The notes beneath the pieces are model-generated. The model made no database searches and was not told where the DNA came from. It saw nothing but the letters and a program-made list of their open reading frames with translations. A DNA stretch of 64,000 nt from an uncultured Gammaproteobacteria bacterium (GTDB taxonomy: Bacteria; Patescibacteriota; Microgenomatia; CAZETR01; Amesbacteraceae). The position numbers were made by a program, and so were the translations under genes. The stretch is taken from NCBI GenBank assembly GCA_964502885.1, contig CAZCXU010000001.1:93352-157351 (forward strand). Direction: 5' to 3'. Each line of letters opens with the position of its first letter. Position 1 is the stretch's first letter. Shown piece by piece: positions 2,486-43,216 of this stretch.

Positions 2486-2486
2486 G

Positions 2487-17028: not shown

Positions 17029-17033
17029 TATTC

Positions 17034-19832: not shown

Positions 19833-19839
19833 ACTTTTT

Positions 19840-20931: not shown

Positions 20932-21005
20932 AAGCTGGTTTACATTTATCCTACCGCGTGAAAGAGAGTTTGCAAGCTAATGTTTTCACATACTAGAATA
21001 GAGTC

Positions 21006-21128: not shown

Positions 21129-21166
21129 ATCTATCCTATAGTTGATAATTCGTGGTAAAATGAGAG

Positions 21167-21175
21167 TGTTATACT
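21167..21175 (+). promoter_or_regulatory. Extended -10 element TGTTATACT ending 6 nt before the ATG of the 926-aa gene (leaderless geometry)
   Basis: TGTTATACT lies at 21167..21175 and the ATG at 21182. The identical 9-mer occurs upstream of pilin paralog 10 (reverse strand, 30349..30357). Confidence 0.35.
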
Positions 21176-21181
21176 AATTTC

Positions 21182-23962
21182 ATGGACGATATGAGCAGCG
21201 AATCTAGACGGTCTGGTAGACTTGATTTTGACTCTGGCTTGGACGCTTCCCAAGTTAACAGAAGTGGGGATGTTGTAGGCCGAAATGTTCAAGAGTGGGG
21301 AGGGCGGGGGAGGCAGGTTGATGCGGAAGATGATAATTTAGAAATTTTCAAAAAAAAGTTGGAAGAAGCGGAGAACTTTTCTAGTATTCAGACTTATGTA
21401 GTGGGATATTTGGAGAGAGCTGAACAGAGAAACATCGTCGAGAGAAACGCAGCTTTGGAATTAATTCTGGAGAGGTCGAGATCATTTAAGGAGGTGGACT
21501 TAGGAATTCAAAGAGCTTTAAAAATCTCTCTAAAGGAGGAAAGGTTTGAAGAGTTGAAACAACTGAAAGACGAACAAGCAGCGTTGATGGTGGTGGCTGA
21601 TTCTTTAGATATGTTTGAAGGGGTAAGGCAGGTGGCTAGAGCAGGCCAGGGGGATTATTTACGAGGGAAGAGAGACGCGGATGAAATCTTTTCTGGAGCT
21701 GTGGGGCCTAATGTGTCAAATATAAGGGGTTCAGAGAAATTGCAAGGAATGGTGGACAGATACCAAGCCACAGCTGTAGGGGTGTGGGAATGGGCAAAAA
21801 GTGTGGCAAAGGGCGCGGATTATGAAGGTCGAACAAAAGAAGGTTTAGAGGCGTTGGGATGGGGAACTATCCCGTTTAGAGAAACATTGAACTTGGCAAG
21901 GGTTATAACGGAAGAAACTGTTTCTCCACCGGAAACTCCCCCCAGAGTTGGTCCATCTGGTGGTGACCCATCTCGAGGACCAGAAAGTGAGATTTTTGCT
22001 GAAAGGGCAAGGAGAGCAGAAGAGTTGTTGATAGCAACGGGATTAAGTAACAATGGTTTGCCAACATCAATTGCTGAGTTGGATGCTATTGAACAAGGGG
22101 CTCCATACATCGAAAAAACAGGCAGACCTTTGTATGGTGGAATTTTGCACAACCTGCTTAATAAATACATGACAGTTTCGGTGACTGAGGGAGAGAAAAG
22201 ATTGGGGTTGGCTAGTAAGGTGGAGGCTAATTTTACTTCTGATGAGTTGCTACTAATTAACGACAGAGATGTGAGGTTTTGGGTTCAAGTGTTTGCCTTT
22301 GGGTTTGGGTTGGGGTCTCGAACGAAAATTAATTCACATTTAAATGAGAATCAGGGTGGTTTTGTGAAGAATGCTTCAGGAGAAGCTCCCATGCAGGGGA
22401 GAAGTGTGGGTGAAATGTTAAATGCAATTGCAGGTAGGGATGTTGAGAATGATGAAAGAATGTGGGGAGAATATCGTATGGAGGCGGGGCGACGGGTGGC
22501 TCCCTCTAAGGATAATACATGGAATAAAGCTTTTGGAAATGTGCAGTATGGTGAATGGGAGGTTTTGCAGGTGGCGATGATGAGAGCAATAGTGTTGCGA
22601 GGGAATCCAGAGATTTCTTCGGATGAACTCGACACAATAATTCGTACTAATAAAAATTTACGTATGGGTTTAGCTGGGGCGAGGATGTATGCAATGGCGA
22701 CACATATGGGAGATCAGTTTGCAGTCGAATCTAAACACTTTTTAGCAACGGCGGCATATTTTGAGTTCCATTTTCAAGCAGCAGCCGTGGATAGATTGGC
22801 AAAATTATCATTACCACACAGGTTTAGGAGTTATATGAATTTAAACTCAGACTTATTTAAGGACTCGCAGGGAAACTGGAGTGATGAAACACTTATGCAT
22901 CGCAGATTATTTGCCCCTGATGTAATGCGATCAGTTATATGTTCTCCTGCTGTGTTTTCGCGAGGAGTACAAGGACCTAATCCGGAAGAATCAAGATATG
23001 AACCACAGGAGACAATCTTAGACTTGGCCATAAGGGGCATAGAAGTTCGACAAGATGCGTTGCAAACAGGGGTAACTCCTACCCGTATTTATAGTTTTGG
23101 AGTAAATGCGGCCGAAAAAATATTTAATTTGGCTTTTGGGGGTGGGACTCCCCCCGAAGGGCCGGATGTAAAGTTTGACAGAGATAAGGGATGGGCGTGG
23201 AATATGGGGCAGGAAATTCTGGCTACAGCGCGGGATTTGGGTTGGATTATGGAATATGAAAATACCATTAAACAAGAAGGGGTGAGTATGACTCCAGCTG
23301 AAGCGTCTCGACGAAGAAGAGCGATAGAACATAATATTCAGAGGTTGGGTATCACTAGGTTTATGGCTGGGTTGGGAATGAGAATAGAAAGAGGCGAAGT
23401 GCACAATTTAACCGATTTGGCGGCTTGGGCGGTGGGGATGGTGCTTGATAGAAGCGCCAAGTTTGTACATCAGATGAATTTGCCGGACGGAAGTGTCAAG
23501 CAGTTGGAGTTTCGCTGGGTATCCAAGGAGGACTCAGAATGGGTTGTAGAACATGGGTTGAATAAAAGAGATGAGAAGTGGGTGGATACGAGAAGCCCTT
23601 GGTCTTATGTTTATGAGTTAGTAACCAGGAGAGCACCTAATCGTAGAGGTGAGTGGGAAACTAAGCAGGGTGGAGAAGATGATTTATTGATTCAGGTATT
23701 GGTAGATAAGGCAGGAGGGGATGCTTCGGAAGCGGCTATGCACAGAAGAGACCAACTGAATCATCGGGTTAGAAAGTGGCGTTGGGGAGTAGGTGACTAC
23801 TTCTTGGGGTGTGGAGGGACTGCTACTAAAGAGGATGTGAGGCTTCGGGAGAGCTTTGAAGAAAAAATTGCGGGTGGTAGGGATATGCCCAAAATAGACA
23901 GGTTAACTCCATATCAAAAGGTGTACAACACATTGGACTTTTCTGATTACGGTAAAAGCTAA
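21182..23962 (+). CDS. Large orphan protein (926 aa) with no recognisable domain, signal peptide or TM helix
   Basis: The ORF is long and uninterrupted, with a coiled-coil-like N-region (EIFKKKLEEAENF...EERFEELKQLKDEQAAL). It is the only plus-strand gene inside the minus-strand T4SS-like gene string. No motif I recognise is present. Confidence 0.7.
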   Translation: MDDMSSESRRSGRLDFDSGLDASQVNRSGDVVGRNVQEWGGRGRQVDAEDDNLEIFKKKLEEAENFSSIQTYVVGYLERAEQRNIVERNAALELILERSRSFKEVDLGIQRALKISLKEERFEELKQLKDEQAALMVVADSLDMFEGVRQVARAGQGDYLRGKRDADEIFSGAVGPNVSNIRGSEKLQGMVDRYQATAVGVWEWAKSVAKGADYEGRTKEGLEALGWGTIPFRETLNLARVITEETVSPPETPPRVGPSGGDPSRGPESEIFAERARRAEELLIATGLSNNGLPTSIAELDAIEQGAPYIEKTGRPLYGGILHNLLNKYMTVSVTEGEKRLGLASKVEANFTSDELLLINDRDVRFWVQVFAFGFGLGSRTKINSHLNENQGGFVKNASGEAPMQGRSVGEMLNAIAGRDVENDERMWGEYRMEAGRRVAPSKDNTWNKAFGNVQYGEWEVLQVAMMRAIVLRGNPEISSDELDTIIRTNKNLRMGLAGARMYAMATHMGDQFAVESKHFLATAAYFEFHFQAAAVDRLAKLSLPHRFRSYMNLNSDLFKDSQGNWSDETLMHRRLFAPDVMRSVICSPAVFSRGVQGPNPEESRYEPQETILDLAIRGIEVRQDALQTGVTPTRIYSFGVNAAEKIFNLAFGGGTPPEGPDVKFDRDKGWAWNMGQEILATARDLGWIMEYENTIKQEGVSMTPAEASRRRRAIEHNIQRLGITRFMAGLGMRIERGEVHNLTDLAAWAVGMVLDRSAKFVHQMNLPDGSVKQLEFRWVSKEDSEWVVEHGLNKRDEKWVDTRSPWSYVYELVTRRAPNRRGEWETKQGGEDDLLIQVLVDKAGGDASEAAMHRRDQLNHRVRKWRWGVGDYFLGCGGTATKEDVRLRESFEEKIAGGRDMPKIDRLTPYQKVYNTLDFSDYGKS

Positions 23963-24020
23963 TTAAAAAAGTGGTCTGGTGGATGGTTTATTCGGATAAG
24001 TTGTTTATAGAATGCGTAGC

Positions 24021-25751
24021 TTAGGATGTACCACCTGCGGGAGGGACAGGTCTTCGAATGTTGGCTTCTTTGGCTTTGGAGACTTGCTGACCAGCCGAAG
24101 TCAATTGTCCCATGGTGTCTTTGGCCATCTTTTCAACAAAGTCAGAAGGATCTACAGACTTACAGAACATGTTCTTAACCATGGTTGCTATGTTGGGGGC
24201 GAATGACATGGCCCCTACGAAAACTGCATATTGGACGAAAATATTACTGGGCATGTCAAATAAGGGAAAGTTGGCTTGGTTGTTAAAAAAGAAGCCTATG
24301 TCTCCGGCGAATCCTGGGACGGGAGTGCGAGTGTCAAACCCTGCATTAATTAGAATTGCTAAGAGAGCATATGTCACAAAAATTGAGGCATTGCCGATGA
24401 GACAAAGAAGCCATTTTTTAAATCCACCAAAATCAGATTTCTTCGATGGGATAATATCGAAAATAATTATTAGCGGGCCGGCGACAACCAGAAGATTAAA
24501 AGTAATAAAGGCGACCACAAATTGACCAATAATTCTGGCCCAGACGTAAATTGACCAAAGGAAGAAACCAAGAATGAAACCAGCTATGAGAACAACCACT
24601 CCTCCAGAAGCAAGATTAAGCAGTGCAGCTAGAACTATAGTGAGAATTATCAGTACTATGGAAACAACTATCCAAAAGGCAAGGAAATGCCAGACAAAAT
24701 CAAAACCGCCTCCAGCTAAGGTGGACATAGCAAGCGGCAAGTCAGTTATAATTGTCATGCCGATAGCTGTTTGGGCAAAATAAAGCATGCCAATAATTGC
24801 GGAAATGGCTAAGTACATCAGGTCAATTACGAAGCCGGCAATGGCGTATGAAAAGAGAACCAACACAATAGATATGGCAATGCGGGGAATAACCATTTGA
24901 ATTGTTACCGAGACTTGCGGAGATATTTTTGAACGGAACATAACCATAAAACCAGCAATGATGATAATCAGGGTGGTAATTAATAGTGCGATGTTTCGAG
25001 TGGCGATCCAAAATGCTCGGGTAGGAGAGTCTGTCGTTCCGGTACCACCCAAGCCAAGTCTTTCGTAACCACTTCCTTGCGCAAACGTGTCCGAGACAAT
25101 GTTGAGTTTTGAAGCAAGTTGTTTAGTTTCAGACCAGGCTGAGGGGAGGGTGTCAATTTGTGATGAGATATAGTAGGTAAGCTTGAGTACTCCAATATAA
25201 CTTTGACCTATGAATCCATATTTATTAACAAATGCCAGATCAGAAGAAGAAAAATTTTGAGTGACGAGCATGCTGCGGGCAAGATCTATCGCTGTGAGTA
25301 AATCAGTGATGTTTTGCAAAAGGGCTGCTGGATCAGGAGAAGATATAACTGAGGGAAATAACATCGAAGAGAGAGAGTTGAGGATCCAGTTTACTTGAGC
25401 GTAGGTGTAGCGCTCACCAAAAATTTCGTCGGGATTTGTATTGTCGAAAACTTTTTGCTGGAACTCCTGAATTGAAGGATTGTACCAAGGGTGTGGTGTT
25501 ACTTCGGCGAAGAACAAACGGGAGATTTCGTAGATGAGATAGGAGCAACGTGCTGCATCACCGAAAGGGTTGGGGGAAATGGCTTGACAGGCAGCATCTG
25601 CCTGAGCGCACAGCGGCTCGGCGGGATCACAGGTCGGTTGGGCAAGAACCGGTGATGGTGTGATAAATACTGTTAACCCTATGAATAGAAACGAAAGGGT
25701 AAAAAGGTATTTTTTAATCAGCATTGAAAGATGTTTTGTCATGGAAGACAT
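24021..25751 (-). CDS. VirB6/TrbL-like polytopic membrane protein candidate
   Basis: 576 aa with a signal/anchor (LFTLSFLFIGLTVFITPSPVLAQP) and a roughly 230-aa extracytoplasmic region carrying 4 Cys. At least 6 long hydrophobic helices follow (for example ALLITTLIIIIAGFMVMF, IAISIVLVLFSYAIAGFVIDLMYLAISAIIGMLYF, WHFLAFWIVVSIVLIILTIVLAALL), ending in a hydrophilic tail. The call rests on topology and neighbourhood, not on a sequence motif. Confidence 0.5.
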   Translation of the reverse strand: MSSMTKHLSMLIKKYLFTLSFLFIGLTVFITPSPVLAQPTCDPAEPLCAQADAACQAISPNPFGDAARCSYLIYEISRLFFAEVTPHPWYNPSIQEFQQKVFDNTNPDEIFGERYTYAQVNWILNSLSSMLFPSVISSPDPAALLQNITDLLTAIDLARSMLVTQNFSSSDLAFVNKYGFIGQSYIGVLKLTYYISSQIDTLPSAWSETKQLASKLNIVSDTFAQGSGYERLGLGGTGTTDSPTRAFWIATRNIALLITTLIIIIAGFMVMFRSKISPQVSVTIQMVIPRIAISIVLVLFSYAIAGFVIDLMYLAISAIIGMLYFAQTAIGMTIITDLPLAMSTLAGGGFDFVWHFLAFWIVVSIVLIILTIVLAALLNLASGGVVVLIAGFILGFFLWSIYVWARIIGQFVVAFITFNLLVVAGPLIIIFDIIPSKKSDFGGFKKWLLCLIGNASIFVTYALLAILINAGFDTRTPVPGFAGDIGFFFNNQANFPLFDMPSNIFVQYAVFVGAMSFAPNIATMVKNMFCKSVDPSDFVEKMAKDTMGQLTSAGQQVSKAKEANIRRPVPPAGGTS

Positions 25752-25797
25752 TTTTACTTTAGAATAAATAGATCAAACATGCAATAACAGTGGTTGG

Positions 25798-28700
25798 TTA
25801 GGGAAAGGGAAACGGGCAGCTGGGAGCAATCCATTCCCATTTGCCTTGAAGGCCAGGATTTGCGGCGGTACCGTCTCCCAACGCATATAGATCGGATTCG
25901 GCGGTGGGAATGCAGGAGTCACCCACCAGGTATATGGCAGAGAATACCCGTACTCCTCCGTAAGTATTTATTTCAGATGCGCAACGGGATCTGATGGCAT
26001 TTACGGTAAGGAGGTGACCGGTGATTTGCTGATCGAAGTTGTTTGGTGTGTTGTATTGACCGACGTGAACGCCAAAATCTTCTACTGGAGTGTTGGCTTC
26101 GTAATTGCTGGCGTCCGATTCGTTTAACCAAATCAATAGTGAAAGTCCAGGATTTACGCCGGCGGCGTCTGCGCGTGTGACGACGTCGTTGTAGCAAAGT
26201 TCTGCGAAAGTGCCATCCGGAAAATTGGTCCAGCGCCTGGCGATGTCTATGTAGTTAGTGCGATCTACACAGGGTGTGTTGGTTTCGGGAAGATTGGTGT
26301 TGCAGTTTATGCCGCCCGGTGAGTCTATAGGGCTGACTGATCCTACAAAGCCTTTTGGTCGGAGGGCGCGTTGGAGATTGAGGTTTTCACGGGTGGGGAC
26401 ACCAAGAATGTGATCGGCAAGGCTGCCGACCTTGGGAAAATAAAAAGCTCCCCCAGAAGTGCGCAAACCTCCTCCGATACCACCAGAGGCTACATTACGT
26501 CCTGCCGTGACACGGGGATTGATCAAATTTTGCACCTGGCCGTTGTAGGCTGCACTAGTTCCTGCCGGTATGGATACGTCTCTGTTGTTGGTGATGTCGT
26601 AATCGGTTTGTGTGATCTGCCAAATGCAGGAGTAGCCCTGGGATGCCATTGCCTGACAGGCTGTTTCGGTTAATTGGTTAGAACAAATTCCAAGATCTCG
26701 GGGTGAGGTGGTGGTGCAAGCTTCATATGTGCCAGTCAGGGGGAGTTTGGGCATCCAGCGACGAAGGACTGAGTTTGGGCCTGCCACAAGGATGTCATAG
26801 AGCTTTTCGATGTATGGTGTTTTTACAAAAGGATTAACCCGTGCAGCTGATCTCAGGTTGCGGGTTGGCCAGACAGGGCAGTGAGGAGGACGAGGGGCCA
26901 GTGCGGGAGCGGCACGAACAACACGCCACTCACAGTATGGTGACATTCCGGCGGCAGTACACCCAGTTTGGTCCAGGGCCGAACAAACAGAAGCATAACT
27001 ATCGTATCCAGATCTGCTGCGGCAGGCATATTCATCAGTGGGGGCACAACATATTTCGCCAGCATTACCACAATCCAGATCAATTATTTCCCGATTTTCG
27101 CCACATCCGTTTGGACCGGGCGCGCGGCAGTCGTATGTGGAGCTGGCATGGTAGCACTCGCTAATCCAAGGACAGCGTTGTCCGATTTGAATCGTGCAGC
27201 ATTCGCCCCCAGGAAGCTGGTCATTGCATTCATCTCCCTCCAGGGAACAGGGTCTATTGATGCAGTTGCCGGCACCGGCGGGACACGGGTTTGCGTCACA
27301 GCCAATTACGAGTCGGGGTGTGTAGCGGAAGAGCTGACGATATGTAAGATTTCCGTTTAGGACGTTTCCCAGCAGGCGATCTCCGGATGAAGTACGAGTT
27401 TCGGCTTCGTCGCAAGTAAAGTCTGATGGAACATATAACGCAGCGGGCGCAGGTCCGTCAATAATTTCCGTGTTGCGAATGACAGTTCCGCCACCAGAGC
27501 AGCCCCTGAGAATGGAGCCTGCAAAATATCTTTGGCAGAGAACAACTGTTTCGTCGGAGTGTCCTTCGGATGCTCCAAAACCCTGATGGCGGGCAACTCT
27601 TTGGGAAAACATATTGCTATTTTCAGAACTGAACAAGGGAGCGTGTGTGGCGGCAGGGGGTGTTGGCGTTGGAGTAGGTGTGGCCAGAACAACAGTTTGA
27701 CTTGAATAACTGGATCCGGCGAGACGAATACGAATGCTGCCGGGGAGACCGCGACTGACAAACCACTGGCTACTTCCGCCGTAGCGATAATATGAATGAG
27801 GCCATGTAGGTATGATGCCTTCGTAATAGCGTTGCACACTGACACTGGGGTCAACATAGTTACTGAGTGGACCGTAGTCTTGGTTTGTTGTCGGATCAAA
27901 AACATGGAATTGGTTCCAAAGCGCTTCACCCATACCTGGCAAACCGTAATAAACATCTATCAGGTTGTAAGCTGGCAAGTAAAAAGCCCGGAGATAGTCT
28001 GCCGGATTTGTTGATAAAACAGGAGTGGGGATTGGGGGCGGGGGGGGAGGGGCGGTGGGAGGAACAATTACCGGATATGGCTGATGCAAAGCTTGGACGA
28101 GACTTGATAAAGGAACAGCTGATTTCATGTGCGGGAAATAAAGCCGTGAATCAAAGCGGCCTGAAATAAGGGTGGGAAAACTGAGGCCAATAGTGAGAAT
28201 TCGGCCATCGATGTCTACGGGTTGAGCTTCCGGAATAACACTTGCTGTAAACTCACTCACAGTGTCCTCAAGAGTTGAGTAATTGATGTATTTATGTGTC
28301 CAGGTTTCGGTATCGAAATTGCTGGCCACCCAACTAAGGCGGCGACGCAGGGTGCTGCTGACGCAGGGTTCTGCGAGGTCGAGACGTAAAGCTGCAGTGA
28401 TGTTTCCGATGCGACTCAGCAGGTTTCTGCCTAGGGAAAAAAGCATGTTTACATCATCAAGGTTGTTGGCTATCACAGTAAAACCGTAATTTAAAAGTAC
28501 ATTTCTAATTCCGATTGGGTTGAATTGATCGCCCGGAAGTAAGGCAATGTTGACAAGTGCGCCACCAAAATCCTGCATATTATTCATGCCAACTCGACGG
28601 ATGATATCGATCATTCTGACAACATCAAGGAAACTGCCAAATGAGTTTGTAAATATTGCTTCCAGAGCGTCTAAAACATAATCAAAGTCGATGTTCCGCT

Positions 28701-29460
28701 GACAGGAAACCAGATAGTTGTGGTACTGTGACCCTACGTTGTTGCTGGCAACGGTTTCCTTTATGTCATCACGGAAGTCTTTTGGATATAATTTGTTTAT
28801 TGGCCCTGAATAAGAGGTGATGCGTTTAGTGTCGGCCGGATCGAAACCGTTTAAGGGAAGTTTTTCTGACTGGAATACCGTACCATTCAGATACCAATTA
28901 AGATATTGGTTAACTTTGTAATCGTCGGGAATTGCAACTTCGGTCTGGCCGAAAATGGGGAGTTGGGAGTTGGTCGCATTGATAGCGACTGTCCAGCGAA
29001 CTCGTTTGACGTAGCAAATGTCTGTGGATCCTGACTCACAGAGATAGTCGTCAGAACGATCGCCGCCCTCCTGGGTTAGGGGGACACTGATGGGGTTGGC
29101 CGGGAGGACTGAAAGACCACACATGTCAATAACGTCTGAGACCTCATCGTAACCTGAGACATTTAGGGATTTGGCACAATGAAATGAGAGATAGACTTTA
29201 TTGGGATCGTCCGGGGCTTCGGGGACTTTTGCGGGAATGAGGACATCGCAAGGGTTTCCAGGATAGGGTCTTAGCGGATGAAATTCCGGATCGTTTCCGG
29301 TATTTGTGTGGCAAGGATAATTAAATGGAGCCGGCCAGGGGTTACGGGTAAAAAATCCGAGAGTGGGGGTCTGGGCGTGAATAAGATTTAGCCATGGAGT
29401 GATGGCAGAAAAGACTGCTACAACAGAGCTTACTACTAACAACTTAACGGTCGGTTTCAT
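25798..29460 (-). CDS. Giant secreted Cys-rich protein (1220 aa), possible surface/tip adhesin with a lysozyme-like C-terminal region
   Basis: The signal peptide is MKPTVKLLVVSSVVAVFSAITPWLNLIHAQ. Proline tracts are present (PPTAPPPPPPIPTP, ATPTPTPTPP). A dense Cys cluster is encoded at about 26920..27305 (CDANPCPAGAGNCINRPCSLEGDECNDQLPGGECCTIQIGQRCPWISECY...). The C-terminal segment AGVNPGLSLLIWLNESDASNY resembles the catalytic Glu-Ser region of SLT/lysozyme-like domains, but this is a weak call. Confidence 0.65.
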   Translation of the reverse strand: MKPTVKLLVVSSVVAVFSAITPWLNLIHAQTPTLGFFTRNPWPAPFNYPCHTNTGNDPEFHPLRPYPGNPCDVLIPAKVPEAPDDPNKVYLSFHCAKSLNVSGYDEVSDVIDMCGLSVLPANPISVPLTQEGGDRSDDYLCESGSTDICYVKRVRWTVAINATNSQLPIFGQTEVAIPDDYKVNQYLNWYLNGTVFQSEKLPLNGFDPADTKRITSYSGPINKLYPKDFRDDIKETVASNNVGSQYHNYLVSCQRNIDFDYVLDALEAIFTNSFGSFLDVVRMIDIIRRVGMNNMQDFGGALVNIALLPGDQFNPIGIRNVLLNYGFTVIANNLDDVNMLFSLGRNLLSRIGNITAALRLDLAEPCVSSTLRRRLSWVASNFDTETWTHKYINYSTLEDTVSEFTASVIPEAQPVDIDGRILTIGLSFPTLISGRFDSRLYFPHMKSAVPLSSLVQALHQPYPVIVPPTAPPPPPPIPTPVLSTNPADYLRAFYLPAYNLIDVYYGLPGMGEALWNQFHVFDPTTNQDYGPLSNYVDPSVSVQRYYEGIIPTWPHSYYRYGGSSQWFVSRGLPGSIRIRLAGSSYSSQTVVLATPTPTPTPPAATHAPLFSSENSNMFSQRVARHQGFGASEGHSDETVVLCQRYFAGSILRGCSGGGTVIRNTEIIDGPAPAALYVPSDFTCDEAETRTSSGDRLLGNVLNGNLTYRQLFRYTPRLVIGCDANPCPAGAGNCINRPCSLEGDECNDQLPGGECCTIQIGQRCPWISECYHASSTYDCRAPGPNGCGENREIIDLDCGNAGEICCAPTDEYACRSRSGYDSYASVCSALDQTGCTAAGMSPYCEWRVVRAAPALAPRPPHCPVWPTRNLRSAARVNPFVKTPYIEKLYDILVAGPNSVLRRWMPKLPLTGTYEACTTTSPRDLGICSNQLTETACQAMASQGYSCIWQITQTDYDITNNRDVSIPAGTSAAYNGQVQNLINPRVTAGRNVASGGIGGGLRTSGGAFYFPKVGSLADHILGVPTRENLNLQRALRPKGFVGSVSPIDSPGGINCNTNLPETNTPCVDRTNYIDIARRWTNFPDGTFAELCYNDVVTRADAAGVNPGLSLLIWLNESDASNYEANTPVEDFGVHVGQYNTPNNFDQQITGHLLTVNAIRSRCASEINTYGGVRVFSAIYLVGDSCIPTAESDLYALGDGTAANPGLQGKWEWIAPSCPFPFP

Positions 29461-29484
29461 GGGCTACACTATTCTAGCAAATCT

Positions 29485-29880
29485 TTAGGAGCAGCCGATG
29501 CCTCTGGCTATACAGATATCAAATATTCCCAAATTGATACCGAGGAAAGTGCCAATAAGGTTGACTATTACGAATGCTGACAAGGTGATTATTAATCCTG
29601 CAAGAGAAAAGATAATTGTATTTCTTGCTTGTTCGGTTTGGGCTTTGTCTGCTCCTGCAGCTAGATACTTGTATCCACCAATAACCAGAAATCCTAAAGA
29701 AATGAAAACAAAAAGGCTGATGATTGCGGTAATCGCAGCGGCTATTACTCTATTTAGGTTCTGGAGCATTGCGGGCGGAGTAGGGTTTGCAATTGTTGTT
29801 TGAGCTTGAGCGACAGTAGGCCATGCTAATACGAATACAGATGCGGCCAACGTGATCAGTGAGCGAATTGTTGTGTACAT
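29485..29880 (-). CDS. T4SS pilin-like paralog 11 (VirB2/TrbC-type), divergent, with Sec signal peptide
   Basis: The signal peptide ends AWPTVAQAQ. The core is ISLFVFISLGFLVIGGYKYLAAGADKAQTEQARNTIIFSLAGLIITLSAFVIVNLI, i.e. two TM helices around a charged loop. The C-terminus ends CIARGIGCS. Confidence 0.7.
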   Translation of the reverse strand: MYTTIRSLITLAASVFVLAWPTVAQAQTTIANPTPPAMLQNLNRVIAAAITAIISLFVFISLGFLVIGGYKYLAAGADKAQTEQARNTIIFSLAGLIITLSAFVIVNLIGTFLGINLGIFDICIARGIGCS

Positions 29881-29896
29881 CTGTTTTTAATATAGG

Positions 29897-29936
29897 GCAA
29901 AAAAACAACCCCGGCAAGGGCCCGGGGTTGTTTTGG
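29897..29936 (-). terminator. Strong rho-independent terminator after pilin paralog 10
   Basis: An 11-bp perfect stem pairs AACAACCCCGG (29904..29914) with CCGGGGTTGTT (29922..29932) around a 7-nt loop. On the minus strand the hairpin is followed by a T7 run (complement of A 29899..29905). Confidence 0.75.
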
Positions 29937-29960
29937 CCATTTCTGGCCGGTTCCAAAAAC

Positions 29961-30323
29961 TTATGAACCAATCGTTGCGAGATTGAATTCGATAAGGTTG
30001 ACGTTGAAGAGAACACGCAGAATGTACAGTAAGGCGTAAGCAGAGAAGACGATTGCCAAACCGATTAAGGCGGCAGTGATCTTCTTGCGAGCTTTTTCGG
30101 TACCTTCTTTGTCTCCACCAGCGAGAATCCATTGTAAACCACCCCAAAGTAGGATGATAAAGGAAGCTACGCCAGCGATACCCAACATAAGATTCAAGAT
30201 GGTTCTCAAGAAATCTGATGGGGTATAGTTCTTCAAAGTGTCGAAACGTGTATCGACGTTAGCCACGCTACCGACATCCGAGTCTGGAATAGGAAGAGCA
30301 AGTTGTGCAAGTAGTCTCATCAT
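29961..30323 (-). CDS. T4SS pilin-like paralog 10 (candidate major pilin)
   Basis: Starts at ATG 30323, 5 nt after the SD-like GGTGAG. The core is IAGVASFIILLWGGLQWILAGGDKEGTEKARKKITAALIGLAIVFSAYALLYILRVLFNVNLIEF. It is flanked by its own candidate promoter and by the terminator at 29897..29936. Confidence 0.8.
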   Translation of the reverse strand: MMRLLAQLALPIPDSDVGSVANVDTRFDTLKNYTPSDFLRTILNLMLGIAGVASFIILLWGGLQWILAGGDKEGTEKARKKITAALIGLAIVFSAYALLYILRVLFNVNLIEFNLATIGS

Positions 30324-30348
30324 CAAATCTCACCGCCTTTCAGTGGAA

Positions 30349-30357
30349 AGTATAACA
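30349..30357 (-). promoter_or_regulatory. Extended -10 element (TGTTATACT on the minus strand) upstream of pilin paralog 10
   Basis: The plus-strand AGTATAACA at 30349..30357 is the reverse complement of TGTTATACT. It lies in the only sizeable gap (53 nt) within the pilin array. Confidence 0.35.
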
Positions 30358-30379
30358 TAAAATCAGTGCCGGAGGCTAA

Positions 30380-30754
30380 TTAGAGGGGTGTGATAGTGTA
30401 CTCAATGAGATTGACGTTGAAGAGGGTACGGATGATATACAGAATCGCATAGGATGAAAATACGATAGCCAATCCTATGAGAGCATAGCTGATTTTGCGG
30501 CGAGCTTTCTCGACTGCGTCTTTGTCGGATCCAGCGGTAATCCATTGAAACCCACCTATTAGGAGGAATAAGAATGCGGCAACACCTGACAGGCCCAGGA
30601 GGGCAAGAATCGACGTGCGGATATAGCTGGCGGGCTGAATATTGTAGGTGTTAGCAAAAGGAGAGTTGGGGTCGCGTAGATCTATTAATTGCTGGGCATC
30701 AATAGAAGGAGGAAAGAGAAGCAAGCTTGCCAGGAGAGCGAGAATCAGTTTCAT
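30380..30754 (-). CDS. T4SS pilin-like paralog 9, with Sec signal peptide
   Basis: The signal peptide is MKLILALLASLLLFPPSIDAQ. The core is LSGVAAFLFLLIGGFQWITAGSDKDAVEKARRKISYALIGLAIVFSSYAILYIIRTLFNVNLIEY. Confidence 0.8.
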   Translation of the reverse strand: MKLILALLASLLLFPPSIDAQQLIDLRDPNSPFANTYNIQPASYIRTSILALLGLSGVAAFLFLLIGGFQWITAGSDKDAVEKARRKISYALIGLAIVFSSYAILYIIRTLFNVNLIEYTITPL

Positions 30755-30782
30755 GTGAGTTCGAGTTTATAAGAAAGGGTTG

Positions 30783-31454
30783 TCAGTTACAAGGGATGCA
30801 GGTAATCAGGCCACATCCAGTCGTGCCGAGCGGAGTCCAAGAGCCGTTTGATTCGCATCGGAAACATGGACCATTTATGACAGATGTTGATCCTAACGTG
30901 CCTGCCGGAATGCATCTTCCAGTTGCAGATCCGCCACAGGCACACATGCCGGATGGTGGGGTGATGTCGCAGCCGGGATCTGTGGGGTTAGTACAAGGAA
31001 TCCCTGAATCCCAGGGATCACTACCAGGAGCAGGTGGGTTGGGGTCGTTGATCTGAGAGGAAATTTCCCCGATATGTCCGAGGTTGAATTGAATTAAATT
31101 GATGTTAAAGAGGGTGCGGAGAGCAAAAAGGAAACTGTAGGCTGAAAAAACAATTACCAGTCCAATTAAAGCCTGAACAACCTTTCTGCGGGCTTTTTCA
31201 ATTGCGTCTTTATCACCACCAGCCAGTATCCACTGAATACCGCCGATAAGCAGGAATATAAAAGAAAAAACTCCTGCCAGTTGGAGGAGAAGGTTTAGAA
31301 GTGTGGTCAATATCATTGATGGGGTGAGGCTGCGAATTGTCGTAAAATCCGGATCGACGTTTTGTTCTATGCCAATGTAGTCTTGTGCTTTTGCGGTTGC
31401 AGGCATTAAGAACATAGAAATAACTGTGGAGATGTGAACCAGGTGGTTTCGCAT
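30783..31454 (-). CDS. T4SS pilin-like paralog 8 with signal peptide and a C-terminal 12-Cys extension
   Basis: The signal peptide ends PATAKAQ. The core is LAGVFSFIFLLIGGIQWILAGGDKDAIEKARRKVVQALIGLVIVFSAYSFLFALRTLFNINLIQF. A roughly 90-aa tail follows: PCTNPTDPGCDITPPSGMCACGGSATGRCIPAG...CFRCESNGSWTPLGTTGCGLITCIPCN. Confidence 0.8.
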   Translation of the reverse strand: MRNHLVHISTVISMFLMPATAKAQDYIGIEQNVDPDFTTIRSLTPSMILTTLLNLLLQLAGVFSFIFLLIGGIQWILAGGDKDAIEKARRKVVQALIGLVIVFSAYSFLFALRTLFNINLIQFNLGHIGEISSQINDPNPPAPGSDPWDSGIPCTNPTDPGCDITPPSGMCACGGSATGRCIPAGTLGSTSVINGPCFRCESNGSWTPLGTTGCGLITCIPCN

Positions 31455-31460
31455 GGGTAA

Positions 31461-31802
31461 TTAGAGGTTTCTTAAGGTGAATCCAATCGGATTTACATTA
31501 AATAGGACACGCAATATATAAAGAATGGCGTAGGAAGAAAAGACGATAACTAAACCTATCAGCGCGTTGATGATTTTACGGCGGGCTTTGTCGATACCAT
31601 CTTTGTCGCCACCGGCAGTAATCCACTGAACTCCACCCCAGAGCAGATAAATAAAGAAGCCAACACCAGCAAGACCCAAGAGAAGACTGATGGCTGTAGC
31701 GACATAAGCGGAGGGTTTGAGGTTTGTAATGTAGTCGTAGTTGCTGTCACCAGAATTGACAGTGATGGGAACAAATTGAGCCAATAGGTGTTGGTTGATC
31801 AT
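31461..31802 (-). CDS. T4SS pilin-like paralog 7
   Basis: The N-terminus is MINQHLLAQ. The core is LAGVGFFIYLLWGGVQWITAGGDKDGIDKARRKIINALIGLVIVFSSYAILYILRVLFNVNPIGF. Confidence 0.8.
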   Translation of the reverse strand: MINQHLLAQFVPITVNSGDSNYDYITNLKPSAYVATAISLLLGLAGVGFFIYLLWGGVQWITAGGDKDGIDKARRKIINALIGLVIVFSSYAILYILRVLFNVNPIGFTLRNL

Positions 31803-32131
31803 AGTTCAGGAACGTTGAGGGAGAGAATCGAGACGCCAAATAACACTTCGATTATCCAAATGATTACGAATGAAGAAAGAAGTATGGCAATTCCAATAAG
31901 GGCATTACGAATACGGTGTGTGGCTTTCTGGACGCCTTCCTTATCTCCGCCGGCGGTGATATAGGCAAAACCACCCATTAACAAGTTGACGAAAAAATAA
32001 ATTCCACTTAATCCCATGACGGCATTTAAGACGTTTCTTAGTAGCAACTGGACCATGCTGTCAGCCTCGTTGACGTTGATATTTCCGATTTGACTGTTGA
32101 CCGCAGGGTTGACGATGGTAAACAGATACAT
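31799..32131 (-). CDS. T4SS pilin-like paralog 6
   Basis: The core is LSGIYFFVNLLMGGFAYITAGGDKEGVQKATHRIRNALIGIAILLSSFVIIWIIEVLF. It overlaps the next gene by 4 nt (ATGA). Confidence 0.75.
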   Translation of the reverse strand: MYLFTIVNPAVNSQIGNINVNEADSMVQLLLRNVLNAVMGLSGIYFFVNLLMGGFAYITAGGDKEGVQKATHRIRNALIGIAILLSSFVIIWIIEVLFGVSILSLNVPEL

Positions 32132-32134
32132 ATT

Positions 32135-32518
32135 TTAAGGTGAAGCAACAATTAACTGCAATCCGAGACGAAAGATGTCCAATCCCAGGAATCGGCCAAT
32201 GATTCCAATTAGTCCGTATGATCCAACAACTATGAACATACCCAATATGGAAGTGGAAAGACGTTTTTTGCTTACCTCCACGGTATTTTTATCGCCACCG
32301 GCACCAATCCACTGCATTCCGGAAAGGACTATTTGATAGATGAACCAAAGTGACGCGACTATAGTGAGTAAACCGAGGATAGAAGAAACAAATTTTTCCA
32401 ACATATCTCCGGGCCCTCCACCTGTGCCAGTCATAAAAAGTCCTGAATGTCCAAATGTACCCAGAGGTCCGACACCGTCAATGTTTCCCAAGTTGACTTG
32501 AGCTAAAAGGTTTCTCAT
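32135..32518 (-). CDS. T4SS pilin-like paralog 5
   Basis: I chose the start at ATG 32518 (MRNLLAQVNLGN...), which gives a 4-nt ATGA overlap with the upstream stop. The core is VASLWFIYQIVLSGMQWIGAGGDKNTVEVSKKRLSTSILGMFIVVGSYGLIGIIGRFL. Confidence 0.75.
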   Translation of the reverse strand: MRNLLAQVNLGNIDGVGPLGTFGHSGLFMTGTGGGPGDMLEKFVSSILGLLTIVASLWFIYQIVLSGMQWIGAGGDKNTVEVSKKRLSTSILGMFIVVGSYGLIGIIGRFLGLDIFRLGLQLIVASP

Positions 32519-32874
32519 GGGGTGAATATCCGTGGTGAAATAAGCGTGTTCCATCCATTAATACCATACAGGAAGAGGCCGATGACGCTGGCGATGACTA
32601 ATGATCCGGTGACTATGGCTAGTCCCAGAAAGGATTGCCAAATGCGCTCGTGGGCTTTTTGGACCATTTTGGGGTCGCCATTTGCGCTTAAGTATCCATA
32701 CCCTGCCAAAATTAGATTGATCAATGTGTATATACCAGCCAGGATTATGGAGAGTCGGATGAGGCTGCTAAGAATTAAGATAAGACCTTCGCCCTGAGTG
32801 CCAGCTGCGAGTCTGGGATTGTTGTATCCGGATGTCCCAAATGGATTGTCGATAGTGCCGAATGCTCCTAACAT
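32515..32874 (-). CDS. T4SS pilin-like paralog 4 (divergent)
   Basis: The core is LAGIYTLINLILAGYGYLSANGDPKMVQKAHERIWQSFLGLAIVTGSLVIASVIGLFL. Confidence 0.7.
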   Translation of the reverse strand: MLGAFGTIDNPFGTSGYNNPRLAAGTQGEGLILILSSLIRLSIILAGIYTLINLILAGYGYLSANGDPKMVQKAHERIWQSFLGLAIVTGSLVIASVIGLFLYGINGWNTLISPRIFTP

Positions 32875-32880
32875 AGTTTT

Positions 32881-33231
32881 TTAGACGAATGGCGGGTCAA
32901 TTAAGTTTACACCTGTAATGGTAGATATAATCTGAAGTATAAAATAAGCACTAATGACTAGCAATAAGCCCAGAACTCCATAAGTGACGGAATTTTTTCC
33001 TTGCTGAACACGTTGTGGAGGGTTGATTTGTCCGCCAAAGATAATTAGTAAGTAACCTCCGTGGATGATGAGATAAATGAAATAAAGACTGGCGATTGCC
33101 ATGGCATTGAGGAGTAAGAGAGAGACAATATCGCCCAATTGACCACGGAAAGGGGAGGTGGCCCCAACGTTGGGATGGTTGACGAAAAACTTGTCTTGCA
33201 AGTTTACTGGCGGGTTAAGAAGCTGAAACAT
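32881..33231 (-). CDS. T4SS pilin-like paralog 3 (divergent)
   Basis: The core is IASLYFIYLIIHGGYLLIIFGGQINPPQRVQQGKNSVTYGVLGLLLVISAYFILQIISTITGVNLI. Confidence 0.7.
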   Translation of the reverse strand: MFQLLNPPVNLQDKFFVNHPNVGATSPFRGQLGDIVSLLLLNAMAIASLYFIYLIIHGGYLLIIFGGQINPPQRVQQGKNSVTYGVLGLLLVISAYFILQIISTITGVNLIDPPFV

Positions 33232-33234
33232 TTT

Positions 33235-33540
33235 TTAGATTAAGTTGGTGCGGGTAATAGTTTGAATTATTTGCAAAATAAAGAAGGCACTAACTACAGT
33301 AAGGAGGCCAAGAAGCGCGTTGGTGATCTGTCTTTTTATCTGCATGAGTTTGGCTTCGTCGCCCAGGCTTCCCATATATGCGAATCCCGCTGTAATCAGA
33401 TGGTAAAGAAAATAGAGTCCGGCTCCGGCCATGGCAAAGAGAATAGTGCGAGAGGCGATTGTTGAGGGTAGTGTGGCACTGGTCGAGAATCGGCCGGAGG
33501 TGTGGATGAAATCGGGAATCTGAGCTAAATGTGAGTTCAT
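33235..33540 (-). CDS. T4SS pilin-like paralog 2 (divergent)
   Basis: The N-terminus is MNSHLAQ. The core is GAGLYFLYHLITAGFAYMGSLGDEAKLMQIKRQITNALLGLLTVVSAFFILQIIQTITRTNLI. Its start overlaps the upstream stop by 1 nt (TAATG). Confidence 0.7.
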   Translation of the reverse strand: MNSHLAQIPDFIHTSGRFSTSATLPSTIASRTILFAMAGAGLYFLYHLITAGFAYMGSLGDEAKLMQIKRQITNALLGLLTVVSAFFILQIIQTITRTNLI

Positions 33541-42560: not shown

Positions 42561-42624
42561 TTATTGATACTAAGTCTAGCATTATTTGGTTTTTGGGGCA
42601 TGATCTGAGAAAATGTGTGGGCTT

Positions 42625-43182: not shown

Positions 43183-43216
43183 TAGTGCAAATTAGCCTCC
43201 AAAATTATACCATTCA

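What the first reader, a model, noticed from the sequence alone, without database searches (positions are those of the whole stretch)
29897..30379. Pilin paralog 10 is insulated by its own promoter-like element and a strong terminator, making it the candidate major pilin
The only sizeable gap in the array (30324..30379) contains an extended -10 element (TGTTATACT on the coding strand) and a good SD (GGTGAG, 5 nt before ATG 30323). The gene is followed by the strongest intrinsic terminator I can see in the window, an 11-bp GC-rich stem plus a T7 run at 29897..29936. A monocistronic, terminator-capped pilin gene embedded in an operon is the arrangement expected for a highly expressed major subunit. 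Partial read-through could feed the downstream genes (paralog 11, the giant protein and the VirB6-like protein).
Basis: inference. Interest (0 to 1): 0.5.

Follow-up and report, generated by a model that had tools for sequence, protein, structure and literature searches.

The report
Specially expressed pilin gene in array
In a Candidatus Amesbacteria-like genome, one of eleven tandem VirB2-like pilin genes has its own promoter, the locus's only ribosome-binding site and a strong terminator, and this pattern in related genomes makes it the best candidate for the main pilus subunit.

Summary
Paralog 10 (29961-30323, minus strand) is preceded by the extended -10 box TGTTATACT (30357-30349) and a long Shine-Dalgarno sequence, AAAGGCGGTGA (30340-30330). 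It is followed by a 13-bp perfect hairpin plus T7 (29934-29899), the best terminator candidate in the window.

Relatives support function. In about 70 non-redundant loci from Candidatus Amesbacteria and other Microgenomatia, the ortholog is nearly always the penultimate pilin. A strong hairpin follows 41/70 orthologs but only 9/376 other pilin ORFs, and 7 of 10 stem pairs show compensatory changes. A strong Shine-Dalgarno sequence precedes 89% of orthologs and 0-15% of the other classes. A -10 box precedes 16/17 close orthologs. Paralog 10 is also the most conserved paralog.

Three points need correcting:
- The 56-nt gap is not the only one; gaps of 28, 80, 24 and 46 nt also exist.
- Nothing insulates the gene on its 5' side.
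- Paralog 9, paralog 11, the giant gene and probably the VirB6-like gene have their own -10 boxes 4-10 nt before their start codons, the leaderless layout common in this window. Read-through is therefore not needed.

"Major pilin" remains a well-supported inference with no expression data. Arrays of this kind are already published; this expression pattern was not in the papers I read.

The parts
30324..30379 (-). Intergenic gap of 56 nt between paralog 9 and paralog 10. It carries the promoter and the ribosome-binding site.
   Evidence: No significant RNA structure (z = +0.67), so there is no upstream terminator.
30349..30357 (-). Extended -10 promoter element TGTTATACT (TGn + TATACT). The predicted transcription start is near 30341-30344, which is an inference.
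   Evidence: The identical 9-mer lies 6 nt before ORF 21182. Motifs of this type precede tRNAs, tmRNA and gene starts. A -10 box at this position occurs in 16/17 close orthologous loci, 14 of them with TGn.
30330..30340 (-). Shine-Dalgarno sequence AAAGGCGGTGA, ending 6 nt before ATG 30323.
   Evidence: -13.3 kcal/mol; every other gene of the locus is -5.3 or weaker. (strongest at any first start codon in the window). (ortholog median -17.1, 89% at -10 or stronger; other pilin classes 0-15%).
29961..30323 (-). Paralog 10, 120 aa. It is a T4SS_pilin (VirB2-like) protein of the short form, without a signal peptide.
   Evidence: PF18895 42.2 bits against a cutoff of 26.6. (two-helix hairpin, residues 35-68 and 72-105). 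(orthologs 62-85% identical). (most conserved paralog).
29935..29948 (-). Small GNRA-looped hairpin GGCCA-GAAA-TGGCC just upstream of the terminator.
   Evidence: A small hairpin at the same place is seen in several orthologous loci. Its function is unknown.
29899..29934 (-). Intrinsic terminator. The 13-bp stem pairs 29934-29922 with 29914-29902 around a 7-nt loop. T7 runs 29905-29899 and overlaps the stem's last four bases.
   Evidence: Conservation (41/70 against 9/376). Covariation (7/10 pairs compensatory, 0/500 shuffles). 36 distinct stems.
29889..29917 (-). Promoter-like element for paralog 11. The -10 box TATATT (29894-29889) lies 8 nt before ATG 29880. A possible -35 box, TTGCCG (29917-29912), sits in the terminator loop and 3' arm.
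   Evidence: TTGCCG, 17-nt spacer, TATATT; by eye, a TATAnT box follows the T-run in most of the orthologous loci printed. By my reading, the spacing is 17 nt in 4 of the 6 loci with the CTTGCCGGG loop. One search shows this leaderless layout is common in the window.
29485..29880 (-). Paralog 11, 131 aa, with a signal peptide and no Shine-Dalgarno sequence. It is the first gene of the downstream unit.
29471..29479 (-). Extended -10 box TGCTAGAAT, 10 nt before the ATG of the 1220-aa giant gene.
   Evidence: Conserved as TGCTAnAAT in orthologous loci.
30763..30768 (-). The -10-like box TAAACT, 9 nt before the ATG of paralog 9. Coordinates are derived from the sequence.
   Evidence: TAAACT, d = 9. 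Conserved as (T/G)(A/C)TAAACT before paralog 9 orthologs.
34062..34070 (-). Extended -10 box TGCTAAACT, 6 nt before the GTG of paralog 1. This is the promoter of the array.
   Evidence: The same motif occurs in 9 of the 12 other loci where the first array gene was captured.

Best explanation
Paralog 10 is the one VirB2-like subunit of this Patescibacterial T4SS-like locus that is built for much higher expression than its ten neighbours. Three elements point to that.
- A sigma-70 extended -10 promoter (TGTTATACT) should start a short leadered mRNA. Its 5' UTR would be about 20 nt and consists almost entirely of a near-perfect Shine-Dalgarno sequence.
- Every other gene of the locus lacks a Shine-Dalgarno sequence. 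Those genes are either leaderless, with a -10 box 4-10 nt before the start codon, or tightly packed behind the gene upstream.
- A strong intrinsic terminator right after the stop codon should end both the paralog 10 transcript and any transcript arriving from paralogs 1-9.

Transcription then appears to restart at a -10 box just after the T-run for paralog 11. It appears to restart again before the giant gene and probably before the VirB6-like gene.

The most likely meaning is a major/minor division of labour. Paralog 10 would be the bulk structural subunit, and the other ten paralogs would be low-copy accessory pilins.

Shown here: the sequence elements, their conservation and covariation, the uniqueness of the Shine-Dalgarno sequence, and the protein conservation. 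Inferred: the transcription start, actual termination, relative abundance, and the existence of a filament.
For: - The elements are present, and the terminator ranks first in the window.
- Synteny: the ortholog is the penultimate pilin, followed by paralog 11, the giant gene and a polytopic membrane protein.
- Terminator: a hairpin of -18 kcal/mol or stronger follows 41/70 orthologs and 9/376 other pilin ORFs (Fisher p = 3e-30). Among orthologs at least 62% identical it follows 20/21. There are 36 different stems. 96% of cells are paired, 7/10 pairs show compensatory changes, and 0/500 shuffles match.
- Shine-Dalgarno: -13.3 kcal/mol against -5.3 or weaker for the other 12 genes of the cluster. 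Only 6 of 62 ORFs in the window reach -8. The ortholog median is -17.1 with 89% at -10 or stronger; the other classes reach that in 0-15%.
- Promoter: a -10 box lies 4-14 nt upstream of the Shine-Dalgarno sequence in 16/17 close orthologs, 14 with TGn, against backgrounds of 3.5% and 0.4%. The same motif type precedes tRNAs, tmRNA and leaderless genes in the window. An rpoD gene with region 3 is in the window.
- Protein: in 12 of the 13 most complete arrays, paralog 10 has the highest identity to its window counterpart (63-79%, others 33-68%); the thirteenth (L018) is a tie at 55%.
Against: - There are no transcript, 5'-end, 3'-end or protein abundance data.
- No pilus has been demonstrated for any Patescibacterial T4SS. 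The 2025 review calls it a possibility (PMC12857230).
- The copy in this window lacks the signal peptide that most orthologs carry, which is unusual for a VirB2-type pilin.
- The terminator is absent from about 40% of the more distant orthologous loci, where paralogs 10 and 11 abut. In some loci the hairpin has no clear U-tract.
- Related loci are not phylogenetically independent, so the p-values are overstated.
- High conservation and strong translation would also fit an abundant non-filament role.
Confidence: 0.6

Rival explanations
1. The hairpin is mainly an operon boundary. It separates the pilin array (paralogs 1-10) from a separately regulated downstream module: paralog 11, the giant surface protein and the VirB6-like protein. 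Paralog 10 just happens to be the last gene before the boundary and need not be the most abundant subunit.
For: - The downstream genes have their own conserved -10 boxes.
- No terminator lies upstream of paralog 10, so the hairpin ends all array transcription.
- A strain variant shares the paralog 10 module exactly but diverges straight after the TATATT box. That suggests the boundary is also a recombination joint.
Against: This does not explain why paralog 10 alone has a promoter of its own plus a near-perfect Shine-Dalgarno sequence in about 89% of orthologs. That includes lineages that have no terminator at all. It also does not explain why paralog 10 is the most conserved paralog. The idea is compatible with the best explanation rather than exclusive of it.
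Confidence: 0.2
2. The stem-loop acts mainly as a 3' stabiliser or processing endpoint rather than as a terminator. It would protect a processed paralog 10 mRNA from 3' exonucleases, while RNA polymerase largely reads through.
For: - Several related loci keep a strong hairpin but have a weak U-tract or none (L015, L018, L019, L030).
- A second small hairpin often precedes it.
Against: - In the window and in most close relatives the stem is followed at once by T5-T8 and preceded by an A-tract. That is the canonical intrinsic-terminator form.
- 17 of 21 close orthologs have a T-rich tail.
- A -10 box directly downstream suggests transcription has to restart.
Confidence: 0.1
3. Paralog 10 is a conditionally expressed pilin, for example specific to a life-cycle stage or to host contact. 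Its private promoter would exist for regulation, not for bulk output.
For: - A separate promoter allows independent control.
- In the Saccharibacterium TM7x, expression of T4SS genes and the neighbouring 'effector' genes changes between infection phases (PMC10768705).
Against: - I saw no obvious operator-like repeat in the 56-nt gap, which has no significant predicted RNA structure. I ran no dedicated search for a regulator site.
- The promoter is a plain extended -10 box like those before tRNA and tmRNA genes.
- The strong Shine-Dalgarno sequence and the highest conservation point to abundance.
Confidence: 0.08
4. The promoter-like box, the Shine-Dalgarno sequence and the hairpin are chance matches with no function.
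For: - Consensus scans of 24000-38000 find no more promoter-like or terminator-like sites than shuffles do.
- The raw count of the extended -10 motif in the window is at chance level.
Against: The position, conservation and covariation of all three elements across dozens of diverged loci, and the strongly non-random placement of the motif in the window.
Confidence: 0.02

Closest known systems
VirB2-like pilin arrays of Patescibacterial T4SS loci (Quinonero-Coronel et al. 2025, PMC12102498; essential pilin array of Southlakia epibionticum, Wang et al. 2023, PMC10633639)
   Same: - A tandem array of PF18895/PF04956-type pilins next to genes for VirB4, TrsD and PrgI/VirB3-like proteins and close to dnaA.
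- Eleven genes, the published maximum for such arrays (2-11).
- The arrays are reported as especially abundant in Microgenomatia.
- Low identity between paralogs.
   Different: The papers I read describe the arrays as variable paralogs and suggest host-range versatility. They do not report promoters, terminators or a distinguished subunit: 'promoter' and 'terminator' each occur 0 times in PMC12102498. Here the array is an ordered set of orthologous positions conserved between genomes. One position is singled out by a promoter, a Shine-Dalgarno sequence, a terminator and higher conservation.
Major-subunit genes capped by an intra-operon terminator or stem-loop in other pilus systems, such as E. 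coli papA in the pap operon and type IV pilin pilA genes
   Same: A small structural-subunit gene is followed directly by a strong stem-loop, with accessory and minor-subunit genes around it. The logic is to set the stoichiometry between the bulk subunit and the minor components.
   Different: These are different protein families and assembly machines (chaperone-usher and type IV pili, not VirB2). Here the accessory pilins lie mostly upstream, the downstream genes restart from leaderless promoters, and translation may matter as much as transcription, because paralog 10 has the only Shine-Dalgarno sequence.
VirB2 / TrbC / TraA conjugative pilins of Gram-negative T4SS (PF04956)
   Same: A small protein with two hydrophobic helices joined by a short basic loop (GGDKEGTEKARKK), as in the model. 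It is encoded in a locus with a VirB4 ATPase.
   Different: - PF04956 scores below its cutoff (25.4 against 27.9).
- No solved pilin is detectable by sequence or by Foldseek.
- The host is thought to be a monoderm.
- This copy has no signal peptide.
- Classical T4SS operons carry one virB2 gene and no internal terminator, as far as I know.
Tandem virB2 paralogs of Bartonella and Anaplasma (as cited in PMC12102498)
   Same: Several VirB2-like genes in tandem within a T4SS locus.
   Different: Those arrays are interpreted as antigenic or host-range variation among interchangeable copies. Here the positions are ancient, ordered and non-equivalent.
Leaderless transcription units with a -10 box a few nucleotides before the start codon, as described for Actinobacteria such as Mycobacterium (Cortes et al. 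2013, seen only as a reference in PMC12641261)
   Same: 15 of 59 ORFs in the window have a TAnA[ACT]T box ending 4-13 nt before the first start codon, against 2.5% at random positions. Shine-Dalgarno sequences are rare.
   Different: This is inferred from sequence only. I found no transcription-start mapping for this lineage. Paralog 10 is the exception: it is leadered and has a Shine-Dalgarno sequence.

Membership tests
T4SS_pilin / VirB2-TrbC pilin family | Profile match above the curated threshold | tested here: met
   PF18895 scores 42.2 bits against a cutoff of 26.6. PF04956 TrbC scores 25.4 against 27.9, below its cutoff. NCBIfam Mbov_0395 pilin-like scores 24.3 against 40, also below cutoff.
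T4SS_pilin / VirB2-TrbC pilin family | Two hydrophobic helices forming a hairpin with a short charged connecting loop | tested here: met
   The AlphaFold2 model has helices at 35-68 and 72-105, with pLDDT 86-90 over residues 41-100. The loop motif GGDKEGTEKARKK is invariant or nearly invariant across orthologs.
T4SS_pilin / VirB2-TrbC pilin family | Structural similarity to solved conjugative pilins | tested here: inconclusive
   Foldseek against the PDB gives only generic helical hairpins, with the best E-value at 1.2 and no pilin among the 50 matches listed. A profile search of PDB sequences finds nothing significant.
T4SS_pilin / VirB2-TrbC pilin family | N-terminal signal peptide that is removed on maturation | tested here: not met
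   The window's copy starts MMRLLAQ, and an in-frame TGA lies 6 nt upstream. Most close orthologs (about 140 aa) do carry a signal peptide that ends in the same AQ motif.
T4SS_pilin / VirB2-TrbC pilin family | Encoded with core T4SS components (VirB4, VirB3/PrgI, VirB6) | tested here: met
   A VirB4-type ATPase lies at 17318-19183, a PrgI family protein at 19840-20931, and a TrsD-like ORF at 19161-19907. The 576-aa 'VirB6-like' protein has no HMM hit, so that label is unverified.
T4SS_pilin / VirB2-TrbC pilin family | Polymerises into an extracellular filament | not testable with these tools
   No filament has been shown for any Patescibacterial T4SS (PMC12857230).
Intrinsic (Rho-independent) terminator | Stable G+C-rich stem-loop followed immediately by a U-tract, placed downstream of a stop codon | tested here: met
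   A 13-bp perfect stem is followed by T7, starting 27 nt after the stop codon. It ranks first in the window.
Intrinsic (Rho-independent) terminator | Structure conserved through compensatory changes in orthologous positions | tested here: met
   96% of cells paired, 7/10 pairs with changes on both sides, 0/500 shuffles as good; 41/70 against 9/376, and 36 distinct stems.
Intrinsic (Rho-independent) terminator | Actually stops RNA polymerase | not testable with these tools
   This needs Term-seq or an in vitro or reporter termination assay.
Sigma-70 extended -10 promoter | TGn followed by a TATAAT-like hexamer, suitably placed upstream of the gene | tested here: met
   TG-T-TATACT matches the hexamer at 5/6 and ends 8 nt before the Shine-Dalgarno sequence and 25 nt before the ATG. 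It is conserved in 16/17 close orthologs, 14 with TGn.
Sigma-70 extended -10 promoter | The same motif marks other transcription starts in this genome, and a sigma factor with region 3 is present | tested here: met
   12 of 19 motif matches lie just upstream of gene, tRNA or tmRNA starts. An rpoD gene with regions 1.1 to 4 lies at 62361-63470.
Sigma-70 extended -10 promoter | A -35 hexamer at 16-18 nt | tested here: not met
   The tool's scan reports no two-hexamer site here. By my own reading, the best candidate is TTAGCC, a 3/6 match with a 19-nt spacer. Extended -10 promoters do not require a -35 box (established knowledge).
Sigma-70 extended -10 promoter | A mapped transcription start | not testable with these tools
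   This needs 5'-end sequencing.
Major pilin (bulk filament subunit) | Much higher abundance than the other pilins, and the main component of the filament | not testable with these tools
   Only indirect evidence exists: the unique Shine-Dalgarno sequence, the gene's own promoter and terminator, and the highest conservation.

The most novel reading that the evidence does not exclude
The T4SS-like machine of Microgenomatia, and perhaps of Patescibacteria in general, may build a VirB2-based filament or conduit on a major/minor plan. One abundant subunit, the paralog 10 ortholog, would be combined with about ten ordered, low-copy and non-interchangeable VirB2-like 'minor pilins', plus a giant surface protein. 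That resembles the organisation of type IV pili and T2SS pseudopili, and no VirB2-based system built this way came up in the papers I read. The recurrent signal-peptide-less forms of the abundant subunit would then imply Sec-independent insertion, for example by YidC alone.
Probability: 0.3. Interest if true: 0.7.

Novelty: new variant of a known kind. Interest (0 to 1): 0.5.

Why it matters
T4SS pilin arrays are widespread in Patescibacteria and are essential in the one species tested. What they build is unknown, and the 2025 review treats a pilus only as a possibility.

A single paralog marked out by conserved expression signals gives a concrete target. It is the subunit to look for in metaproteomes, to tag or deplete in cultivable relatives, to model as a homopolymer, and to match to densities in cryo-tomograms. 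It also recasts the arrays as ordered sets with one bulk member and many accessory members, rather than pools of interchangeable variants.

The analysis also suggests how promoters and translation starts are laid out in this lineage: extended -10 boxes, mostly leaderless or Shine-Dalgarno-less genes, and few terminators. That is useful for annotating these genomes.

Tried and rejected
Searches that gave nothing useful:
- A search for syntenic loci with the 1220-aa giant protein found no relatives. The pilin itself worked as the query.
- Rfam gave only a sub-threshold Leu_leader hit caused by the terminator shape, so this is not a known RNA family.
- A profile search of PDB sequences and a Foldseek search of the AlphaFold2 model were uninformative, because helical hairpins are generic.
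- Pfam and NCBIfam gave no hit for the giant protein or the 'VirB6-like' protein. The VirB6 label is therefore unverified.
- Literature searches found no expression or proteomic data that identify a dominant T4SS pilin in any Patescibacterium. They also found no transcription-start mapping for this lineage.

Analyses dropped or corrected:
- A codon-adaptation test was not run, because the window holds no ribosomal-protein or EF-Tu genes to serve as a reference.
- My fixed-length hairpin finder missed several hairpins. The class labels were wrong and were corrected. The 'tail' column is wrong and was not used.

Ideas considered and rejected:
- The 56-nt gap is not a decayed signal-peptide coding region. 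Loci with long-form orthologs have gaps of 38-57 nt that hold the same promoter and Shine-Dalgarno sequence, so the gap exists regardless of form.
- The hairpin is not a dispersed repeat.
- The hairpin is not a terminator for a convergent gene. The called genes from 24021 to 34055 are all on the minus strand.
Full report
**What is in the window**

On the minus strand, 34055 to 29485 holds eleven small ORFs. All of them hit Pfam PF18895 (T4SS_pilin), seven at or above the curated cutoff. They are followed by:
- a 1220-aa ORF with no family hit (29460-25798);

Nearby genes encode a PrgI/VirB3-family protein (19840-20931), a TrsD-like ORF (19161-19907) and a VirB4-type ATPase (17318-19183). dnaA and dnaN lie at 12917-15647. 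Titles of related genome records name Candidatus Amesbacteria and the Microgenomates group. This is therefore a Patescibacterial T4SS-like locus with a VirB2-like pilin array, a kind of locus already described (PMC12102498, PMC10633639).

**The observation**

Paralog 10 is 29961-30323.

Upstream of it:
- TGTTATACT lies at 30357-30349.
It is AAAGGCGGTGA at 30340-30330, which ends 6 nt before ATG 30323.
- An in-frame TGA lies inside the ribosome-binding site, so the ORF cannot start further upstream.

Downstream of it:
- A small GNRA hairpin lies at 29948-29935.
- A 13-nt perfect inverted repeat follows (29934-29922 paired with 29914-29902, 7-nt loop), together with T7 at 29905-29899.
- The folded region has z = -3.5, and 0 of 200 shuffles fold as well.
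- In my scan of every T-run in the window it ranks first of 171 candidates.
- It is single copy.

The 56-nt gap is not the only gap: the gap after the gene is 80 nt, and there are gaps of 28, 24 and 46 nt.

**Is it more than chance?**

Consensus scans alone say nothing. Promoter-like and terminator-like hits in 24000-38000 are no more frequent than in shuffles. The 19 matches to TGNTANAMT in the window are close to the 16.4 expected.

Placement is decisive:
- 12 of those 19 matches lie within 40 nt upstream of a gene, tRNA or tmRNA start on the same strand, where 1.65% is expected (p = 2e-17).
- The hits include the tmRNA, three tRNAs, paralog 1, the giant gene and ORF 21182. The last carries the identical 9-mer TGTTATACT 6 nt before its ATG.
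- An rpoD gene with region 3 is in the window.
- 15 of 59 ORFs have a -10 box ending 4-13 nt before their first start codon, against 2.5% at random positions (p = 1.5e-11).
- Only 6 of 62 ORFs have a Shine-Dalgarno duplex of -8 kcal/mol or stronger.

By sequence, then, genes in this window mostly use extended -10 promoters, many transcription units appear leaderless, and Shine-Dalgarno sequences are rare.

**Related loci**

The giant protein found no relatives, but paralog 10 did. Its close homologs are 62-85% identical. With their contigs and two collection scans I held about 100 loci, of which about 70 are non-redundant.

The array is an ordered set. Positions 1 to 11 each have their own ortholog, in the same order, in genome after genome. 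The paralog 10 ortholog is nearly always the penultimate pilin. Three features single it out.

1. Terminator.
   - A hairpin of -18 kcal/mol or stronger lies within 95 nt of the stop codon in 41/70 orthologs and 9/376 other pilin ORFs (Fisher p = 3e-30).
   - Among orthologs at least 62% identical the figure is 20/21, and 17 of those 21 have a T-rich tail.
   - The stems differ between lineages, with 36 distinct hairpins.
   - On an alignment of 13 of them, 96% of cells pair, 7 of 10 pairs carry changes on both sides, and no shuffle or slid register comes close.
   - In more distant loci paralogs 10 and 11 abut and no hairpin is present. A few loci keep the hairpin but lack a clear U-tract.
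2. Shine-Dalgarno sequence.
   - In the window, paralog 10 has -13.3 kcal/mol. The other 12 genes of the cluster are -5.3 or weaker, and most are near -1.
   - Across loci the ortholog median is -17.1 kcal/mol, with 89% at -10 or stronger. Every other pilin class has a median between -1 and -6, with 0-15% at -10 or stronger.
   - This holds even in lineages without the terminator.
3. Promoter.
   - A -10 hexamer ends 4-14 nt upstream of the Shine-Dalgarno sequence in 16/17 close orthologs, 14 with the TGn extension. The backgrounds are 3.5% and 0.4%.
   - The same is true of 19/42 more distant orthologs.
   - The flanking bases have diverged.

Paralog 10 is also the best conserved protein of the array. 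In 12 of the 13 most complete arrays it has the highest identity to its window counterpart (63-79%, against 33-68% for the others). The thirteenth, L018, is a tie at 55%.

These loci are related to one another, so the p-values overstate independence. The diversity of stems and flanks argues against simple inheritance.

- The 56-nt gap has no significant structure (z = +0.67), and there is no terminator before paralog 10. Transcripts that start upstream should therefore read into paralog 10. The gene is capped at its 3' end only.
- Paralog 10 is not the only gene with a promoter-like box. Conserved -10 boxes lie 4-10 nt before the start codons of four or five other genes:
  - paralog 1: TGCTAAACT at 34070-34062;
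  - paralog 9: TAAACT;
  - paralog 11: TATATT at 29894-29889;
  - the giant gene: TGCTAGAAT at 29479-29471;
  - probably the 576-aa gene: CTAAAGT.
- Downstream genes therefore need not depend on read-through.
- In four of the six close loci with the CTTGCCGGG loop, the loop and 3' arm read TTGCCG exactly 17 nt from that TATAnT box (my reading of the sequences printed). A -35 element may be embedded in the terminator, but this is an inference.

**Mechanism proposed**

- Shown: the elements, their positions, their conservation and covariation, and the uniqueness of the Shine-Dalgarno sequence.
- Inferred:
  - Transcription starts near 30341-30344, giving a 5' UTR of about 20 nt that is essentially the Shine-Dalgarno sequence.
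  - Translation initiation is efficient, in contrast with the ten neighbours, which are leaderless or closely packed behind the gene upstream.
  - Transcription terminates at 29899-29905.
  - Transcription restarts for paralog 11.

The outcome would be one abundant VirB2-like protein and ten scarce ones, which is the pattern expected of a major subunit with minor or accessory subunits. I put 0.6 on this combined reading. I put about 0.8 on the narrower claim that paralog 10 is a separately and more strongly expressed unit.

**The protein**

PF18895 is met (42.2 bits against 26.6). PF04956 is just below its cutoff. The AlphaFold2 model is a two-helix hairpin with a conserved basic loop. Comparison with solved pilins was uninformative.

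The window's copy lacks a signal peptide. Homologs fall into a long class (about 140 aa, with a signal peptide ending in AQ) and a short class (about 120 aa, starting M..LLAQ). Short forms often have long forms as their nearest relatives. This is unusual for a VirB2-type pilin and is a caveat for the filament reading.

**Comparison with what is known, and novelty**

Arrays of 2-11 VirB2-like genes in Patescibacteria are published. They are described as variable paralogs that may broaden host range (PMC12102498). The array is essential in Southlakia (PMC10633639), and a pilus is only speculated (PMC12857230).

None of the papers I read mentions promoters, terminators, Shine-Dalgarno usage or a distinguished subunit. 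The regulatory logic itself is familiar from other pili, where a bulk-subunit gene is capped by a stem-loop (papA, pilA). That comparison rests on my own knowledge and I did not check it.

I therefore rate this a new variant of a known kind and of moderate interest. It gives a testable candidate for an open question, but in uncultivated organisms and without expression data.

Noticed in passing
window, whole; examples at 21167-21175(+), 42573-42581(-), 49815-49823(-), 11313-11321(-), 40652-40660(-), 43204-43212(-), 46681-46689(-), 50193-50201(-): Genes in this window appear to use extended -10 boxes (TGnTAnA[AC]T) as their main promoter signal. The boxes lie 6-12 nt before start codons, which implies leaderless mRNAs, and also before tRNA and tmRNA genes. 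Shine-Dalgarno sequences are rare: 6 of 62 ORFs reach -8 kcal/mol.
   Followed up: partly
window 29889-29917 (-): A -10 box, TATATT, lies 8 nt before the ATG of paralog 11, directly after the terminator's T-run. A -35-like TTGCCG sits inside the terminator loop and 3' arm at 17-nt spacing. This looks like a compact terminator-promoter junction, and it is conserved in several relatives.
   Followed up: partly
window 29961-30323 (-); proteins P0001-P0120: The conserved pilin exists in a long form (about 140 aa, with a signal peptide) and a short form (about 120 aa, starting M..LLAQ, without one). Short forms are often nearest to long forms, which suggests repeated loss or gain of the signal peptide. 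By eye, paralogs 2-7 of the window also lack signal peptides, while paralogs 1, 8, 9 and 11 have them. Some short forms in databases may be gene-call truncations.
   Followed up: partly
L001:415-590 and L002:629-804, compared with window 29881-29960: Two short contigs (SRR22184561 and SRR22184562) carry an identical paralog 10 with the same promoter and terminator. They diverge from the window immediately after the TATATT box. Paralog 11 there seems to start at a GTG 7 nt after the box and has a different signal peptide. This looks like strain-level replacement of the downstream module at the terminator-promoter joint.
   Followed up: partly
window 29485-34055 (-) and loci L003-L030: The eleven pilin positions are ordered orthologous slots conserved across genomes, not recent duplicates. 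Paralogs 7-10 form a subfamily (47-62% identity), while the rest share 21-47%. Copy number in that subfamily varies: L010 and L013 have three paralog-7-like genes. Paralog 1 and paralog 8 carry extra Cys-rich segments.
   Followed up: partly
window 12917-15647 (+) next to 16162-34055 (-): dnaA and dnaN lie directly beside the T4SS-like locus. This matches the published remark that Patescibacterial T4SS genes often lie near the replication origin. yidC (11302-12126) is also close by.
   Followed up: no
window 17424-17505: A strong palindrome (stem ACCTTCTCC / GGAGAAGGT) has T-runs on both strands. It lies inside the 3' part of the VirB4-type ORF (17318-19183) and ranks third and fourth in the terminator scan. 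Its purpose is unknown.
   Followed up: no
window 19161-19907 (-) and 17318-19183 (-): A 248-aa ORF resembles the N-terminal part of mycoplasma-type VirB4 and TrsD, both below cutoff. It sits just upstream of the VirB4 ATPase ORF and overlaps it by 23 nt. This is the split TrsD + VirB4 arrangement described for Patescibacteria.
   Followed up: no
window 3662-3707 (+): The second-best terminator-like hairpin in the window (-16.7 kcal/mol, T6) lies in the gap between ORF 2436-3539 and the class I (leucyl-type) tRNA synthetase gene at 3715-5961. Canonical terminators otherwise look scarce in the window.
   Followed up: no
window 29935-29948 (-): A small GNRA-looped hairpin (GGCCA GAAA TGGCC) lies between the stop codon and the terminator. 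A small hairpin of different sequence occupies the same place in several related loci.
   Followed up: no
window 34056-34080: Only 25 nt separate the divergent starts of paralog 1 (GTG 34055) and the SpoIID-domain gene (ATG 34081). The paralog 1 -10 box lies inside this gap, so the promoter of the SpoIID-domain gene must overlap coding sequence, or that gene starts later.
   Followed up: no
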